A DNA stretch of 64,000 bases. It comes from Octopus sinensis (Eukaryota). Below the pieces are notes generated by a model. That model saw only the letters and a program-made list of their open reading frames with translations, ran no database searches and was not told where the DNA came from. A program made the translations under genes and the position numbers. Each line of letters begins with the position of its first letter. Positions within the stretch are counted from its first letter, which is position 1. Positions 35,065-44,200 of this stretch are shown one piece after another. The stretch spans positions 86,118,001-86,182,000 of the forward strand of contig NC_042998.1 in the NCBI RefSeq assembly GCF_006345805.1. Reading direction: 5' to 3'.

Positions 35065-36225
35065 TTATTATCTACATTATTGGATGGATGTGTCTTCATC
35101 TTGTTTGTTGTTATCACAATGTTTTGGCTGATTTACTCTCCAGCCTGGTGTAATTTTGTCTGTTGTCCTGGTGGAATTTTGAACCCAACCCTGGTATTTT
35201 TTGCTGGTGTTATTATTATTTATTCAAGGCACTGCCTGGAATTGAACTTGGAATCTTGGAGTTAGTAGCCCATGCCCTTAACTATTTTGCTATATGCCCG
35301 TGGGCAATTACAGAGTAAATTTTAGGGCTTATAAACTTGATATTTTCCTATCCTTCCTTAATACCAGTATCCATATTCTACTCATATCTGCACTATGTTT
35401 GCTTAGGAGATTATTGTGTCATAGCATATGTGCTGCTTGTTTTAAGAAGAGGAGAGAGGATGAAACCTATAAACTGACCACAGTCTGTTTCCCCTGTGTG
35501 AAAGACCTCTCAGAAAAGATACAAAAGATATGCGGTTCATATGACATCAGGACAGTATTCAAAAGTATAACAAAACACTTAGCAAATATTCTTTCAAGTA
35601 AAACCACCAATAGAAGAGAATATGACCAAAGATTGTGTGTACTCCATCCCATGCAGTTGTGGTAGGTTATACAAAGGCAAAACATATCGCCCACTCAAAA
35701 TAAGAGTAGAGGAACATTTTAAAGCTGTGACATGAGAGAGTTGAAAAATAAAAGAAGCAGCACATATGCTAGGACACAATAACCTCCTAAGCAGACCTAG
35801 TGCAGATATGATCATGTATGGAGAAACGGAGACCACCTTCACCTGTGGGATGAAGTTAAAATAATAGACAGAGAACACCACTGGAAAATATGAAAACTAA
35901 AAGAAGCAGCATATATACTAGGACACAATAACCTCCTAAGCAGACTTAGTGCAGATACGAGTAGAATATGGGTACCAGTATTAAGGAAGGATAGGAAAAT
36001 ATTAGATTTATAAGCCCATATAGTGAAATGGTTAAGACTAACCCCAATATTCCAAGTTCAATTCCAAGCAGTGCCTTGAATAAATAATAATAACACCAGC
36101 AAAAAATTCCAGGGTTGGGTTCAAAATACCACCAGGACACCTGATGAAGGCAGGAGAGTAAATCAGCCGAAACATTGTGGTAACAACAAACAAGATGAGG
36201 ACACATCCATCCAATGTAAATAATG
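35065..36225 (+). mobile_element. Penelope-like element fragment with GIY-YIG remnant and inverted terminal copy
   Basis: Reads CVYSIPCSCGRLYKGKTYRPLKIRVEEH at about 35634-35718. 35065-35443 is approximately the reverse complement of 35897-36225. Confidence 0.85.
36138..36179 (+). ncRNA. Minimal hammerhead-ribozyme-like motif of a Penelope pLTR (probably mutated)
   Basis: cac-CTGATGA-a-GGC...GCC-GAAA-catt-gtg. Stem III lacks the expected G (GAAACGTT). Confidence 0.55.
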
Positions 36226-36890: not shown

Positions 36891-36969
36891 GGAACTCTCA
36901 TCACTACAGTGACAGCTGAAGATCAAGACAGAGGCATACCGAATGATATTGGTTATAAACTTATTAAAG
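36891..36969 (+). CDS. Cadherin exon: GTLITTVTAEDQDRGIPNDIGYKLIK
   Basis: ttttatttcacag acceptor and gtataa donor. 79 nt, phase 0/1, with the A-x-D-x-D motif. Confidence 0.92.
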
Positions 36970-37094
36970 GTATAATTTCTAAGATTTATTCTCTAAATCT
37001 TGAAATAAAACAAAAATGCAATACTGTGCTGTATTTATTCAAAGTATTTAGTATATATGTACATATATGTATCCATGAGCCTACATGCATACCA

Positions 37095-37135
<41 letters not shown>

Positions 37136-37640
37136 AAGAGATGATGAGCGATTGCCAGAAGAATATTGAGCTTTATTTGATAATCAGTTGGTCTAGCAAG
37201 CAGGGCCTCATATTAGTGAGTGGGGCCTGTGCACATTGACGCTGTCGAAAGGTAGGCCCCAAAATGGCATGCATTCTCTCTTGATGACCCCATACACTTG
37301 CTGCCTTCTGGTATGCAGAGTTCTCAACTGGTAGCACTTGCATGTGCATGTTGTTTGCAAAACATATATATGTATGTATATATATATATAGACGCACATA
37401 AAAAACACCATTTGAGCGTGGCCATTGCTCGTACCGCCCGACTGGCCCTCGTGCCAGTGGCACGTAAAAGCACCCACTACACTCTTGGAGTGGTTGGCGT
37501 TAGGAAGGGCATCCAGCTGTAGAAACTCTGCCAGATCATGATTGGAGCCTGGTGCAGCCATGTGGTTCGCCAGTCTTCAGTCAAATCATCCAATTCCTGC
37601 TAGCATGGAAAGCGGACGTTAAACGATGATGTTAATGATG

Positions 37641-37694
<54 letters not shown>

Positions 37695-38169
37695 GGCAGG
37701 GCTGGCCTGCTAGGTAGCCGGCCGAATGCTAGAAAGAGATCATCAACGATCAAACTACAAGGGAAATTCTCAACCGCAGTGAATTATTCACTGCAGTCCT
37801 TCGCTTCAGGAATTTCTTAGCACGCCAGAGCCAAGACATTTGAAATTTTATCCCCGATGTAAATGGCAAAACTATGCACGTGTCTGTCTTGACACAGAGA
37901 GCTGGGGTTAGTTTTGCTTTTTGCATCTCGATGACCGAATGTACTGATGAAGTCACGGACATTTGAATTATGTAAGTAATTCTTTTGTTAAAGACCGAAA
38001 CCGAGGTATGCATTTAAGTCTGTTTTTTATTTAAATTTTCATATGTCCTGCCCGCCAAATTTGGTTCTGGTGTTCGCTGAATTCTTCCTCTAGAGAATTT
38101 CCCTTGTAGTTTGATCGTTGATGATCTTTTTCTAGCATTCGGCCGGCTACCTAGTAGGCCAGCCCTGCC
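37695..38169 (+). mobile_element. 475-bp non-coding element with 77-bp terminal inverted repeats, in (TA)n
   Basis: 37695-37771 and 38093-38169 are reverse complements with 2 mismatches by eye. CpG-rich relative to the flanks. Confidence 0.9.
37938..38014 (+). ncRNA. Type I hammerhead ribozyme motif
   Basis: Stem I AATGTA/TGCATT, core CTGATGA, stem II GTC/GAC, GAAA, stem III ACC-ga-GGT, cleavage triplet GTA (38006-38008). Confidence 0.7.
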
Positions 38170-38276
38170 TATATACACATATATTAGAATTTTCTCTGAC
38201 TTCTCAAATTTTTTGAATGCTGGACTACTGGTTTTAAATTGATATTAAAATTAATATTAATTTATCTCCCTCATTA

Positions 38277-38319
<43 letters not shown>

Positions 38320-38559
38320 ATTTAATAAAGTTACAACATGGTCTAGTTTTCATGTTTTTTATTATTGTATTTTTAAAAAGTTCTTTTTACAATGTTGAAA
38401 TGTGTTAAGCATTAAAAAATGACAGTTGAGTTGAGTGCTTGACAATTGTAGTAAAATGACTGGCTTCTTACTTTTTATACCTTCTAGAAGGCTCCAACAA
38501 GCTGAATTTTTGGAATATGGTTTTGACCAATCAGCATGCCACTTAAATGTCATGGTATG

Positions 38560-39445
38560 CCAGACACACCGATATTACTAGCATAGATCCCACTTTTATT
38601 TTTACCAATTAGCTTGTGGTTTACATGTAATGGCTTCACAAGTGAGCAAACTTAGCTGATTTTGATTGTTTTTATATAAGTTGGTGGGAGTCTTCTGTAA
38701 TTTGTTTATATTCATATGTTAAAGATATTTTTTAATCCACATCACTAACTGGTTGTTATATTATTGTTGTTATTTCTGTTCAGAACAGGTTTGAACATTT
38801 TAGTAAAATGTTTTACCTTTTATCTTCTTCCAATCTCACTTCTGTTGTGTAGTTTGTGGAAAGAAAAAAATTAGAAGCATTTTCTGACCATATATTTTTA
38901 TATGTTCGCTGGAATTTGGTGAACATTAGTGTTATGGATTTGTTGCCGTAGACTTGTGAACATTCTGATAATGCATTCTCTGTCTCACCAATATATAGTT
39001 CCTCGCTATTTAATGCACTAGATCAAATTTCTGCTTTTGCAGTTCATATCTGCATTTGTGAAAATCTGTCCATTTTTTGTTCAAATGGATTTACCAGTCT
39101 GCATGTATTAACACATTCCACATCTGTTATCATTACTCTTGGATTCTTTGAATGTTTTATCCTGTTTGTTCATGTTGAATTTTGCCTTTGTTAATTGTTT
39201 CTTTAGATTATGTGGTTGCCTTTTGCTTAAGATAAGTGTTTGATTAGTTATTATGTTTTTGCATTTTTCTCTTTGTTTCATGATTGGCAAATTTGTTTTG
39301 ATGCTGTTGAAAATGTTTCGGTGATGCAGATTGTGTGTTACTAGAAATGGTATTGTGTTCTGTTGATGGATTTTTCTTTCTCATTTTGCCTTATGTTATT
39401 CTTTAGGTAGCTCTTTCGCTCATAGTATGCTATTTTCTATAAGTA
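38560..39445 (-). mobile_element. Decayed Penelope-like (Neptune-type) RT-linker/GIY-YIG fragment
   Basis: Motifs: KRQPHNLKKQLTKAKF, RCGMC, YIGETE and a terminal FKPVLN. Confidence 0.7.
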
Positions 39446-39465
39446 TCTATCTATCTAGGTTGTCC

Positions 39466-39757
39466 CGAAAGAAAAGTTGGAAGTTGATTGGGACCTTTTT
39501 TGAAAAATTATAACTGGTGATGAAAGCTGGTGCTATGAAATTTGCATATGTGGAAGAGGTGAAGAAAAAACAATAGATGTGTGAAAAGGCATCACCTTGC
39601 AAGAGTTCCAGCACTGGTTCAAATAGTGAAAAATGTGCCTGGACCAATGCATTGCTTTAAATGGAGAATGCTTTGTAGGAAATAAAAGTGTAAACATATA
39701 AAACAATGTAAATATAATTATATTGCAAAATTCAGATTTCTTTTGGGTACCTCTTCG
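39466..39757 (+). mobile_element. 3' fragment of the internally deleted mariner family
   Basis: Same ITGDESWCY/FAYVEEVK junction and right TIR as 16415-17325. Confidence 0.8.
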
Positions 39758-40216
39758 TATGATTTAGTCAATTCATAGTTGGCTTTGTGAACTAGAGTTT
39801 TATCTTTGGTCGATTTGAGTTTAATTTGTCACACTATCAGAAATAATATGAAAAGAAGTCACATGGGATAAATAGTTGCACACATCCCTGAATTTAGGTA
39901 TATCTCTAGTGAATGGCTGAGCGCATCTCTCTTGGCCATTGCATCACAAAATTATGGCTTGATCCAAACAAGCCACTGATTACACAAAGCAGCACTGTTA
40001 CTACAAATGTCTGCAATATAATCCTGTCTTTATTAATTTTTTTGCCTTAGCATTACTGCTAAATTTTGCATATGAGAAATATTAATAAGGACATGTTAAA
40101 TTGAATGGGATATAGGTAATTTTTAACTGAATTCTGTCTGAAGCATTAATTAAAATAATTGAAATAAAGAAAAAGAAAAGAATACTTTTCTTTCAAACAT
40201 TTGCTTTATTTTTCAG

Positions 40217-41267: not shown

Positions 41268-44200
41268 ATCATCATCATCATTTAACATCTGTTGTTCATG
41301 GGTTGGATGGTTTGACTAGGGCTAGTAATCTGAGGGGCTGCACCAGACTCCAGTCTGATTTGGCATGATTTCCAGTTTGACAGATCACCAAGTTCTACTG
41401 TCTATTTTGGAATGTGTTTTTTTTTACAGCTGGATGCCATTCCTAATTCCAACCATTTCACAGAATGTAGTAGATGCTTTTCATGTGGCACCAGCACTGG
41501 CAAGGTCTCTTTTGGCTTAGTTTTTATGGTTGGATACCCATTCTAATGCCAACAACTTTACAGGGTGTAGTGGATGCTTTTTATGTGGCACCAGTACCAG
41601 CGAGGTCACCAAGTAACTTGTAAGACAAAGATCCTTTGAGACTGAGAAATACTGGAGAAGGCGGATTTGTGCCAGATAATGAAAGATTAGAGTATGCAGA
41701 AGGAAAGAAGCAGGTGTCTTGCTATAGAGGAGATACATGGTTGCTGCAGTTGGAAGGAGATAGTGTGAGAGAGAGAGAGAGAGAGGGAGTGTGTGATAAA
41801 AAATGAAAGAAAGTGAGAGTGGAAGAGAACGAGAGTGAGAGAGATGGTGGCAGTGTACCAGGGCATACTCTCAAGGTGCAGAGACGAGAATATAAATTGC
41901 ATGGTAGAGCATTGTTAAGGGTGCATGAGTAGGGAGTTCATATGAATGCAAAAACATGAGAGGGGAGAGAATGAAGTTACTGGTGAAACCTGGTTATACA
42001 TGGGGGTACCCAAAATAACCAGAAACACTCTCTGTAGCATAAGCCAATTGTAGTTTGGGATTCTGCCACTTGATGCAACCTTCAAACATCAATCTGTGGT
42101 GTCTGGGATCTTACTGTCACATGGTGCATCTTTGTTTTGTTGCGCATTTCCTCTGTTTGTTGTTTTTTGTGATGGCTGATATGAAGGAACAATGTGCTTC
42201 CATGAAATTCTTTTTATTTTTGGGGAAAACAGCACTGGAAACAGTTGTGATATTTCAGACAGTTTTCAAGGATGCTGCTATGAGAAAAACACAAGTTTGT
42301 GAGTGGTTTTCATGCTTTAGAAATGGTCACTTGTTGCTTGAATATCAACCTCATTCAGGGCAATCATTGACTTCTCAAACAAATGAAAACATCATGAAAA
42401 TTCATGAACTTATCTTGGAGGACCATCACCAAACAATTGACGAACTTGTTGATAAGCCTGGTGTGTCTTGGAGTTCCTGCCAATGAATTTTGAGCAAGGA
42501 ATTGCGAATGAAAAGAATTGCAGCAAAACTTGTGCTTTGCTTGCTCACAGAAAATCAATAGCAAACACAATTGAATGTATATCGTGAACTGAAAGAACAG
42601 TTGGAAGTTGATCCAGAATTTTTTTGAAGCTCATCACTGGTGATGAAATCTGGGGCTACAGAATTTGAAGATGTGGAAGGTGTGAAGAAAAAAATGACCA
42701 GCATTAAAAGGCATCACTTTGCAGGAGTTCCAACACTGCTTTGAACAGTGGAAAATGTGTCTAGACAGATGCATTGCTTCAAATGAAGAATACTTTGAAG
42801 GTGTTAAAAGTGTAAACATGTAAAAAAAACTAAGTGTATAAAATAATATTGCATTGCTGAAGTGGGTAGGTCTTCTCAAGAATCTCATATCACCAAACAT
42901 CTTGGTCCATTGTCATCTCCTCTGTGAAGCCCAACGTACTGACATCAGTTCTCTCCTTGTCTTACTGGGTCACCCTCTTCAACAGTTGCCATCAACTTTA
43001 AGTGATCAACTTTTCTTTATACAGCTATCTTCATTCAAACACATCACATGTCCAAACCAGTATACTCTTCTCTTTTGCATGTTGCATCTGATTACTCTTA
43101 TGCTCAACTTTTCTCTCTGACTATTTACACTTTGTCATACATGTACACTTATGCTGCATATCCATTAGAACATAAGAGCGTCATTCCTCTCTAGTCTATG
43201 CATGTCATCTTCATTCAGAACCCATGTCTCACTACCATGAAGTTGAGCTGTTTGTATTCAAGTATTATGTAATTTGCCTTTCCCTCTGAGAGAGAGTCCT
43301 TTTGTTGCTAACAGAGGTAATAGCTTTCTGAACTTCATCATATTCTTATTCTCGCAACAGTACTTTCAAAACATCCTCCACCACTGTTAATTTAGTCACA
43401 AAAGGAACAAAATCTCTCTACAACTTCAAGAGAGATTCCTGGGCATTTGAGAGAGTCTAATTCCCATGTCTCCTTAATGTTCATTGTTCCTGCATATCTG
43501 CCTCATACAAACACAACTTTTCTGTTAACCTCTCTGTGATTCTGCTTCACCTCTTATGTAAGCATCACTCGCACTGGATGCAATGAATGGAATTTCTTCC
43601 AACACCTTTCCTACATATTAAGTAGGGTTATTTACCAGATGGAAAGAGAGTCTTATCAACTTTCTTGCTAATAACAAGTCTTTGCCAGTTTAACTTTAAA
43701 GCCTTTTGATTTCATGTTGAGCTTCCATACCTGGAATTTCTTCACCAATTTTGATAGATTCAGCAACAAGAGCAAGGTCATCAGCATATAGTAGTTCCCA
43801 CAGGCAGCTAATTTTAAATTTCTGTGTCATGGCTTGGCGTACTATGATGAACAAGAGTGAACTGAGAACTGAACCCTAATGGACTCCTACTTGTACACTA
43901 CATTCGTCACTGACTCCCACCCTACATAAACATCTGTACATGGCATGTACAGCTCTAACAAGCCACTTATCTAATCCTAACTTCCTTAGAGACTACCAGA
44001 TAACAGAGTGAGGGACTCTGTCAAAAGCTTTCTCCAGGTTGACAAAAAGCAAGTACAATAGTTAACATTTGGCCAGATACTTCTCTTGCAGCTGTCTCAT
44101 GAGGAAGATGGTATCTGTGTTACTCTTCTCAGGCACACAAGACCTATTGCATCTCATCTATTCTAATTCTATTCCTAATCAATTGAGCCATAACCCTCTC

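What the first reader, a model, noticed from the sequence alone, without database searches (positions are those of the whole stretch)
37695..38169. MITE-looking element carrying a type I hammerhead ribozyme, sense to the cadherin pre-mRNA
Seen: 77-bp near-perfect terminal inverted repeats in a (TA)n tract, no convincing ORF, and CpG-rich sequence suggesting a young insertion. An internal hammerhead has all core boxes, three stems and a GUA cleavage site at 38008; the first pair of stem II is an A-C mismatch and the stem III loop is 2 nt, which suggests dimeric folding. Inference: a non-autonomous ribozyme-bearing retroelement (retrozyme-like) mobilised by Penelope machinery, with Penelope remnants within about 1.5 kb on either side. 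If active, it would cleave the host intron co-transcriptionally. This is the best candidate for an undescribed system in the window.
Basis: partly seen in the sequence, partly recalled or inferred. Interest (0 to 1): 0.75.

Follow-up and report, generated by a model that had tools for sequence, protein, structure and literature searches.

The report
Twin-armed hammerhead retrozyme, not a MITE
This is one of hundreds of copies of a 546-base non-coding repeat with a conserved self-cutting-RNA (hammerhead) motif; it sits in TA microsatellites as two back-to-back arms that end at two fixed points, the same footprint left by Neptune-type Penelope retrotransposons in this genome, whose enzyme likely copies it, so it is likely a new member of a known class (animal retrozymes) rather than a new system.

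Summary
The 77-bp inverted repeat and the type I hammerhead are real, but the element is not a MITE. Arm lengths vary (59-2577 bp) and the 3' ends point outward into (TA)n at two fixed TA-like sites, A and B, ~110 nt apart. All 54 of 54 two-armed loci with two canonical ends pair A with B. Intact Neptune-type Penelope elements of this genome do the same in 16 of 18. The hammerhead covaries, and two copies are predicted to fold as a dimer. Best reading: a non-LTR retrozyme inserted by Neptune-type target-primed reverse transcription from both DNA strands, probably on one circular or multimeric RNA. The partner family was not identified, and cleavage and circles are untested. This locus has one hammerhead, so efficient cleavage of the cadherin intron is unlikely. 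The class and the PLE link are already proposed in print, and this scan noted the same footprint earlier in other families and genomes. The strict end pairing gives a testable model of Penelope insertion.

The parts
37641..37694 (.). Left (TA)n target tract; its last ~15 bases merge with the TA-like A site of the inverted arm
37695..37771 (-). Inverted, 5'-truncated arm (monomer positions ~319-396, to 411 with the TA-like bases); its 3' end is the short A end pointing into the left (TA)n
37772..38279 (+). Forward arm, nearly one 546-bp monomer (positions ~1-515); its 3' end is the long B end pointing into the right (TA)n
37938..38014 (+). Type I hammerhead: stem I 37938-43/38009-14; CUGAUGA 37944-50; extended stem II 37951-96 with GNRA-capped hairpin 37965-82; GAAA 37997-38000; stem III 38000-38007 (ACCGAGGU, dimer-forming); predicted cut after 38008
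38093..38169 (+).
38170..38279 (+). ~110-nt tail between TA-like sites A and B, present on one arm only
38280..38318 (.). Right (TA)n tract, shared with the 3' end of an older Neptune-type remnant
38320..39446 (-). Decayed Neptune-type Penelope remnant (thumb/linker/GIY-YIG part 38781-39446, 47% aa to the intact 775-aa family, E 1e-46; 3' UTR runs to the TA tract)
35079..36215 (+). Old Penelope/Poseidon-like remnant with inverted pLTR piece and its own minimal hammerhead (36141-36182); no sequence similarity to the 546-bp monomer
36970..40216 (+). Host intron of a + strand cadherin gene (exons 36891-36969 and from 40217)

Best explanation
The locus is one two-armed, head-to-head copy of a 546-bp ORF-less tandem repeat with a conserved type I hammerhead motif (a non-LTR retrozyme), likely inserted into a (TA)n tract by the reverse transcriptase-endonuclease of a Neptune-type Penelope-like element. 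Shown: family, variable arms, two fixed TA-like 3' ends, strict A+B pairing, shared haplotype of the two arms, no ORF, covarying hammerhead. Inferred: tandem copies elsewhere are transcribed, cut to monomers by dimeric hammerheads and probably circularised. The borrowed enzyme nicks both strands of (TA)n and primes one strand at site A and the other at site B of the same template or of sister templates. It copies 5'-ward for a random length, often through more than one unit, and the two cDNA 5' ends are joined. This window copy has a single hammerhead and is likely a passive, dead-end passenger in the cadherin intron.
For: Family: 294 exact hits of a 21-mer spanning the cut site, control 0; period 546. 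In 64 loci / 111 arms, 98 3' ends fall at site A (48) or B (50). Of 36 simple head-to-head loci, 29 are A+B, 0 are A+A or B+B, and 7 have one non-canonical end (P about 2e-9). An older subfamily (82-90% identity) gives 15 A+B of 16 two-armed loci, the other with one odd end. A distant ~58% lineage gives 10 of 10 among 23 loci. Intact 781-aa and 775-aa RT + CX4CX2C + GIY-YIG elements occur here, end in (TA)n and show a short end plus a ~30-35-nt tail end in 12 of 13 and 4 of 5 head-to-head pairs (counted by eye). In 14 of 29 loci neither arm is a sub-segment of the other, so each was primed separately. Arms of one locus agree at 791 of 853 polymorphic cells against 572 expected. 45 of 111 arms exceed one monomer and 22 read through two or more hammerhead sites. 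Core columns are invariant or nearly so except free N7 (46 T / 66 A), and the GNRA loop varies only at N. 95.8% of cells are paired, with double changes in stems I and II. Two copies cofold as a dimeric hammerhead at -32.2 against 2 x -13.0 kcal/mol.
Against: No sequence similarity was found between any of four monomer lineages and 20 Neptune loci (nhmmer E<=0.05), so the partner is assigned by footprint only, and only 150 of 5029 GIY-YIG candidates were scored. Naiads also target (TA)n (PMC8557442) and were not looked for. Cleavage and circular RNA are untested. The template is not always a single monomer circle: 10 locus-private variants are fixed in all overlapping units, but 10 are shared by only some units (L041 reads X-Y-X-Y-Y) and 110 are single. 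The base of stem II is A.C in 17 of 24 aligned copies instead of the usually conserved G10.1-C11.1. The tail is ~110 nt, not the 30-40 nt described for PLEs. 5' ends are not enriched at the cut site (2 against 1.4 expected). The covariation control ignores relatedness (3 doubly changed pairs against 2.9 shuffled). Two Neptune pairs were B+B.
Confidence: 0.8

Rival explanations
1. MITE: a non-autonomous DNA transposon with 77-bp TIRs and a TA target, carrying a hammerhead as cargo.
For: Near-perfect inverted repeat in a TA context.
Against: The shorter arm ranges from 59 to 1107 bp across 36 loci. The element extends ~105 bp beyond the right repeat, and tandem 546-bp units and single-arm copies are common.
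Confidence: 0.01
2. The copies are simply 5'-truncated pLTR ends of an autonomous PLE, with no independent retrozyme cycle.
For: Inverted 5'-truncated copy, one-sided tail and hammerhead are standard PLE features (PMC8557442 passages).
Against: Going 5'-ward the arms wrap into another monomer (up to 4.7 units). In the tblastn scan of the element loci fetched, PLE coding hits fell in 11 loci. By coordinates all but one lie apart from the arm 5' ends, and only L010 has a Poseidon-like piece directly against an arm. Monomer length stays at 534-550 bp across lineages 58-90% identical.
Confidence: 0.07
3. Same element, but the inverted arm arises by fold-back or self-priming of one cDNA, and tandem units come from linear read-through of existing arrays or later unequal crossing-over, not from a circle.
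For: Self-priming was proposed for head-to-head PLEs (PMC3846280 passage). In 14 of 29 loci the A arm lies within the B arm, as it does in this window. Some loci show unit-specific variants that fit multimeric templates. Uncleaved RNA is the dominant substrate for the anole PLE in vitro (PMC11167929).
Against: 14 of 29 loci cannot be a fold-back in either direction. Locus-private variants are fixed across both arms in 7 cases. The linear-multimer part of this rival is not excluded.
Confidence: 0.25
4. The intronic hammerhead at this locus is active in cis and cuts the cadherin pre-mRNA, affecting its processing.
For: Sense orientation in a 3.2-kb intron and an intact core.
Against: Only one hammerhead is present (the inverted arm lacks it). 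Stem III has 3 bp and a 2-nt loop, and predicted stem I probability is 0.0-0.1 in context. Single minimal PLE hammerheads showed no cleavage in PMC4209133. Nothing seen marks this copy as conserved beyond its family.
Confidence: 0.08

Closest known systems
Metazoan non-LTR retrozymes (Cervera and de la Pena 2020, PMC7229834, passages read; Li, Clavereau and Pollet 2026, bioRxiv 10.64898/2026.07.22.740005, abstract to discussion read, supplements closed)
   Same: ORF-less tandem repeat with one type I hammerhead per unit, GC below 50%, no LTR/PBS/PPT, monomers to multimers, co-existing with PLEs; dimer-type ribozyme as in axolotl.
   Different: Monomer of 546 nt (170-400 in the 2020 paper, within the 51-972 range of the 2026 preprint); long GNRA-capped stem II; dispersed two-armed insertions in (TA)n with two fixed ends, which the parts I read do not describe; no homologous pLTR found, unlike 24 of 57 Xenopus families.
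Endonuclease-bearing Penelope-like elements, Neptune clade (PMC8557442 and PMC3846280 passages; PMC4209133 results and discussion)
   Same: Partial tandems, inverted 5'-truncated copy, tail on one end only, microsatellite bias, hammerhead with palindromic stem III upstream of the 3' end.
   Different: No ORF; tail ~110 nt instead of 30-40 nt; no detectable homology to the Neptune UTRs examined.
Poseidon element of Anolis in vitro (Frangieh et al. 2024, PMC11167929, main text read)
   Same: Two internal initiation sites that define the tail, AT-rich target, both strands nicked and extended, predicted protein dimer.
   Different: There the start sites were not homologous to the target and did not differ between strands; here both sites are TA-like and the two arms use different sites in 54 of 54 loci.
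MITEs (definition from my own knowledge)
   Same: Short, non-coding, inverted repeat, TA context.
   Different: Repeats are not terminal or fixed in length; tandem units; retro-type truncation.

Membership tests
Non-LTR retrozyme | Tandem repeat unit of a few hundred bp with a type I hammerhead in each unit | tested here: met
   546-bp period, up to 5 hammerheads per arm; the window copy itself holds under one unit on its long arm
Non-LTR retrozyme | No coding capacity, no LTR/PBS/PPT | tested here: met
   Longest ATG ORF 64 aa; no tRNA gene; no LTR-type flanks in 64 loci; PBS/PPT not searched separately
Non-LTR retrozyme | Conserved, covarying hammerhead fold | tested here: met
   caveat A10.1.C11.1 in 17 of 24 aligned copies
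Non-LTR retrozyme | Self-cleavage of the RNA | not testable with these tools
   Needs an in vitro assay; only a dimer fold is predicted
Non-LTR retrozyme | Accumulates as linear and circular monomer RNA | not testable with these tools
   Only assembled contigs were available
PLE-type insertion | Inverted 5'-truncated copy of variable length | tested here: met
   36 of 64 loci simple head-to-head; shorter arm 59-1107 bp
PLE-type insertion | Tail extension on one end only | tested here: met
   54 of 54 loci with two canonical ends; tail ~110 nt rather than 30-40
Autonomous Neptune PLE | RT plus C-terminal GIY-YIG ORF with CX2-5CxxC linker | tested here: not met
   Absent from the element; present in separate families
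Derivative of an identified PLE pLTR | Sequence homology to a pLTR | tested here: inconclusive
   None against 30 Poseidon-like loci or 20 Neptune loci; most PLE candidates unscored
MITE | Fixed-length terminal inverted repeats at both ends and uniform size | tested here: not met

The most novel reading that the evidence does not exclude
A Neptune-type enzyme dimer grips one retrozyme RNA (a 546-nt circle or a short multimer), anneals its two TA-like sites to the two nicked strands of a (TA)n tract, one site per strand, and rolls both cDNAs outward at once. That single step would explain head-to-head arms, the one-sided tail and tandem arrays for Penelope elements and retrozymes alike, and it replaces the fold-back model. 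The two positions that vary between units of the same insertion (monomer 143 and 145) would be a per-pass copying slip that records repeated passes over one RNA.
Probability: 0.4. Interest if true: 0.72.

Novelty: new member of a known kind. Interest (0 to 1): 0.47.

Why it matters
How Penelope elements make their head-to-head, one-tailed insertions, and which enzyme moves animal retrozymes, are both stated as open in the papers read (PMC8557442, PMC7229834, the 2026 preprint). This family gives countable genomic evidence on both: strict A+B pairing, separate priming of the arms, a shared template, and the same footprint in intact Neptune elements of the same genome. It also supplies the reagents for a direct test, a small RNA and intact ORFs. 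The single locus itself is probably inconsequential for the cadherin gene.

Tried and rejected
Rfam scan: no hammerhead hit, only AT-repeat noise. Loose motif scan: missed the motif, and 28 hits were near chance. Search for the same stem III with another 3' base: 17 hits against 28 control, only one with a core, itself a family copy. One stem III variant pattern taken from another data set found 0 hits in G000. Expression: no RNA holder listed. The 8 runs laid (of 19 holders) were all contigs and cannot show cut sites, strand or circles; head-to-tail joints there also exist in DNA. Left Penelope remnant as partner: no similarity; its family is old (77-92% aa among other copies); only 2 ends could be checked for TA and neither had it. 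I first took the right-hand neighbour for mariner only (my recalled reading of 39450-39700; no Pfam hit); searches corrected this, since a Neptune remnant is there. A guess that the TA-like stretch inside Neptune family A is its short end was wrong; its tail lies further 3'. 5'-end enrichment at the cut site: none. tRNA head: none. A paper on dimeric PLE hammerheads that I recall (Lunse et al. 2017) was not held and did not appear in the listing. Exon tethering across cut introns is recalled, with a search listing only. Rows dropped before counts: five overlapping windows and the duplicate L002 from the 30 loci; L029 and L056 (post-insertion duplications) from within-locus statistics; seven overlapping or duplicate loci from the 30. 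The ~70% lineage was inspected but not counted for A+B.

Full report
Observation. The window lies at G000:C2:86118001-86182000. Rfam does not score it. The element lies in the intron 36970-40216 of a + strand cadherin gene, so the ribozyme is sense.

Family. A DNA search gave 199 matches from 40 of 1032 candidates scored, and an exact 21-mer across the cut site has 294 hits with control 0. The unit is a 546-bp monomer in tandem. I analysed 64 loci: 24 non-redundant ones from the 30 best matches and 40 picked from the first 100 listed pattern hits. They hold 111 arms. 98 arms end at one of two TA-like sites, A (monomer 402-417, 48 arms) or B (507-523, 50 arms). The 5' ends are spread over the whole monomer. 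36 loci are simple head-to-head pairs with both 3' ends pointing outward, nearly always into TA repeats; 29 are A+B, none A+A or B+B, and 7 have one odd end (P about 2e-9). The window copy is A (92 bp) plus B (523 bp). An older subfamily at 82-90% identity (129 exact hits) gives 15 A+B among 16 two-armed loci of 30. A third lineage at about 70% (79 hits) has the same layout. A fourth at about 58%, very young, with period 534 and 1470 candidates gives 10 of 10 among 23 loci. This rules out a MITE.

Ribozyme. In about 112 units the core is invariant or nearly so except N7 (46 T, 66 A), and the GNRA loop of stem II varies only at N. The 3' half of the motif was partly fixed by how loci were chosen; the CUGANGA half was not. 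Across 24 distinct copies 95.8% of cells pair, against 28-41% for slid controls, with A-U to U-A in stem I and U-A to C-G in stem II. The number of doubly changed pairs (3) does not exceed the shuffle (2.9), and relatedness is not controlled. The 70% lineage adds further compensation, a canonical G10.1-C11.1, a GUC triplet and a palindromic stem III. The A.C pair is thus a family-wide derived state (A 113 of 113, C 115 of 118), not decay of this copy; it can also be drawn as the extra nucleotide after position 9 noted in PMC4209133 plus a bulge. Two window hammerheads cofold into the dimeric form (-32.2 against 2 x -13.0 kcal/mol), whereas in context stem I has probability 0.0-0.1. Because this locus has one hammerhead, cutting of the host intron should be weak at best (inference).

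Template and priming. Units within an arm differ by 0.91%, opposite arms by 1.23% and different loci by 2.57%. Opposite arms agree at 791 of 853 polymorphic cells where 572 are expected, so both arms come from one source. In 14 of 29 A+B loci neither arm is contained in the other, which a fold-back of one cDNA cannot give; two primings are needed. 45 of 111 arms exceed one monomer and 22 read through two or more hammerhead sites, so the template was circular or an uncut multimer. Ten locus-private variants are fixed in all overlapping units (7 across both arms), 10 are partial and 110 are single: this fits monomer circles in some loci and dimers or multimers in others, and does not prove circles.

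Partner. The left remnant (35079-36215) belongs to an old Poseidon-like family (clade label from my own knowledge of the motifs) with no similarity to the monomer. [quoted passage not shown] Their 3' end motifs have 548 and 991 exact hits, they end in (TA)n, and head-to-head pairs show one short end and one ~30-35-nt tail in 4 of 5 and 12 of 13 cases (counted by eye). Their short ends and site A all begin with AATATA. The 775-aa family carries a minimal hammerhead with a palindromic stem III. A decayed relative of it lies at 38320-39446 on the minus strand and ends in the same TA tract as our B end, which shows a shared target but not descent. No monomer lineage matched 20 Neptune loci, so the partner clade is inferred from the footprint and the family is unknown.

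Mechanism. Shown: anatomy, end rule, separate priming, shared source, covarying motif. Inferred: transcription of tandem donors, dimer cleavage, ligation to circles (as in PMC7229834), nicking of both (TA)n strands and internal initiation at two sites (as in vitro in PMC11167929), annealing of the TA-like sites to the target, and end joining. Junction overlaps of 1-7 bases occur in 18 of 36 loci by BLAST coordinates.

Comparison and novelty. Retrozymes, their proposed PLE origin, inverted copies, one-sided tails and TA bias are all in print. I did not see the strict A+B rule or the argument against fold-back in the parts read, and four searches listed no paper whose title or abstract start states them; that is limited to the held library. 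The scan's own notes, read after my reading was fixed, describe the same footprint for other families here and in other genomes; they are unchecked and not counted as support. Verdict: a new member of a known kind with a useful mechanistic signature. Interest 0.47.

Noticed in passing
monomer positions 143 and 145 (L021:1643 and 1645; window near 37916-37918): These two positions vary between units of the same insertion (27 of 82 and 35 of 83 pairs discordant against about 1% elsewhere), mostly GCG against TCA, almost independently of locus (28 of 71 pairs against 34.5 expected). The variants also occur in short-read contigs of three runs. The partner strand of the stem reads TCAGT, which suggests a per-pass template slip; RNA modification is the alternative.
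   Followed up: partly
L200:6264-7375; L303-L332: A fourth, very young lineage of the same element (534-bp period, many 100% identical copies, 1470 candidates), with hammerhead and A+B ends; a better candidate for current activity than the window's subfamily.
   Followed up: partly
L198, L199, L200, L201, L202, L205: Intact Neptune-type ORFs (781 and 775 aa). The 781-aa family has CCAAT/CRE/TATA-like repeats in its 3' UTR and no hammerhead that I could see; the 775-aa family has a minimal hammerhead.
   Followed up: partly
L002 = G000:C2:86429578-86433052: Segmental duplicate of the window locus 275 kb away, including the element, both PLE remnants and flanks (23 mismatches in 3495 columns), suggesting a duplicated cadherin region.
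   Followed up: partly
L010:2400-2680: An arm's 5' end abuts a Poseidon-like endonuclease fragment directly, followed by another piece of the monomer: possible template switch or nested insertion.
   Followed up: no
window 35079-36215: Poseidon-like remnant with inverted structure and an intact-looking minimal hammerhead at 36141-36182, also sense to the gene.
   Followed up: partly
monomer 88-102 / 135-149: Stem upstream of the hammerhead with a compensatory G-C to A-U change between subfamilies; the whole monomer folds at z = -4.7.
   Followed up: partly
window 39450-39700 and 42043-42486: Mariner-like transposase remnants; the second has Pfam HTH_48 at E 3e-5, the first is a recalled resemblance without a Pfam hit.
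   Followed up: no
runs X11, X16, X19: Contigs labelled as three other organisms also hold the family and its variants.
   Followed up: no
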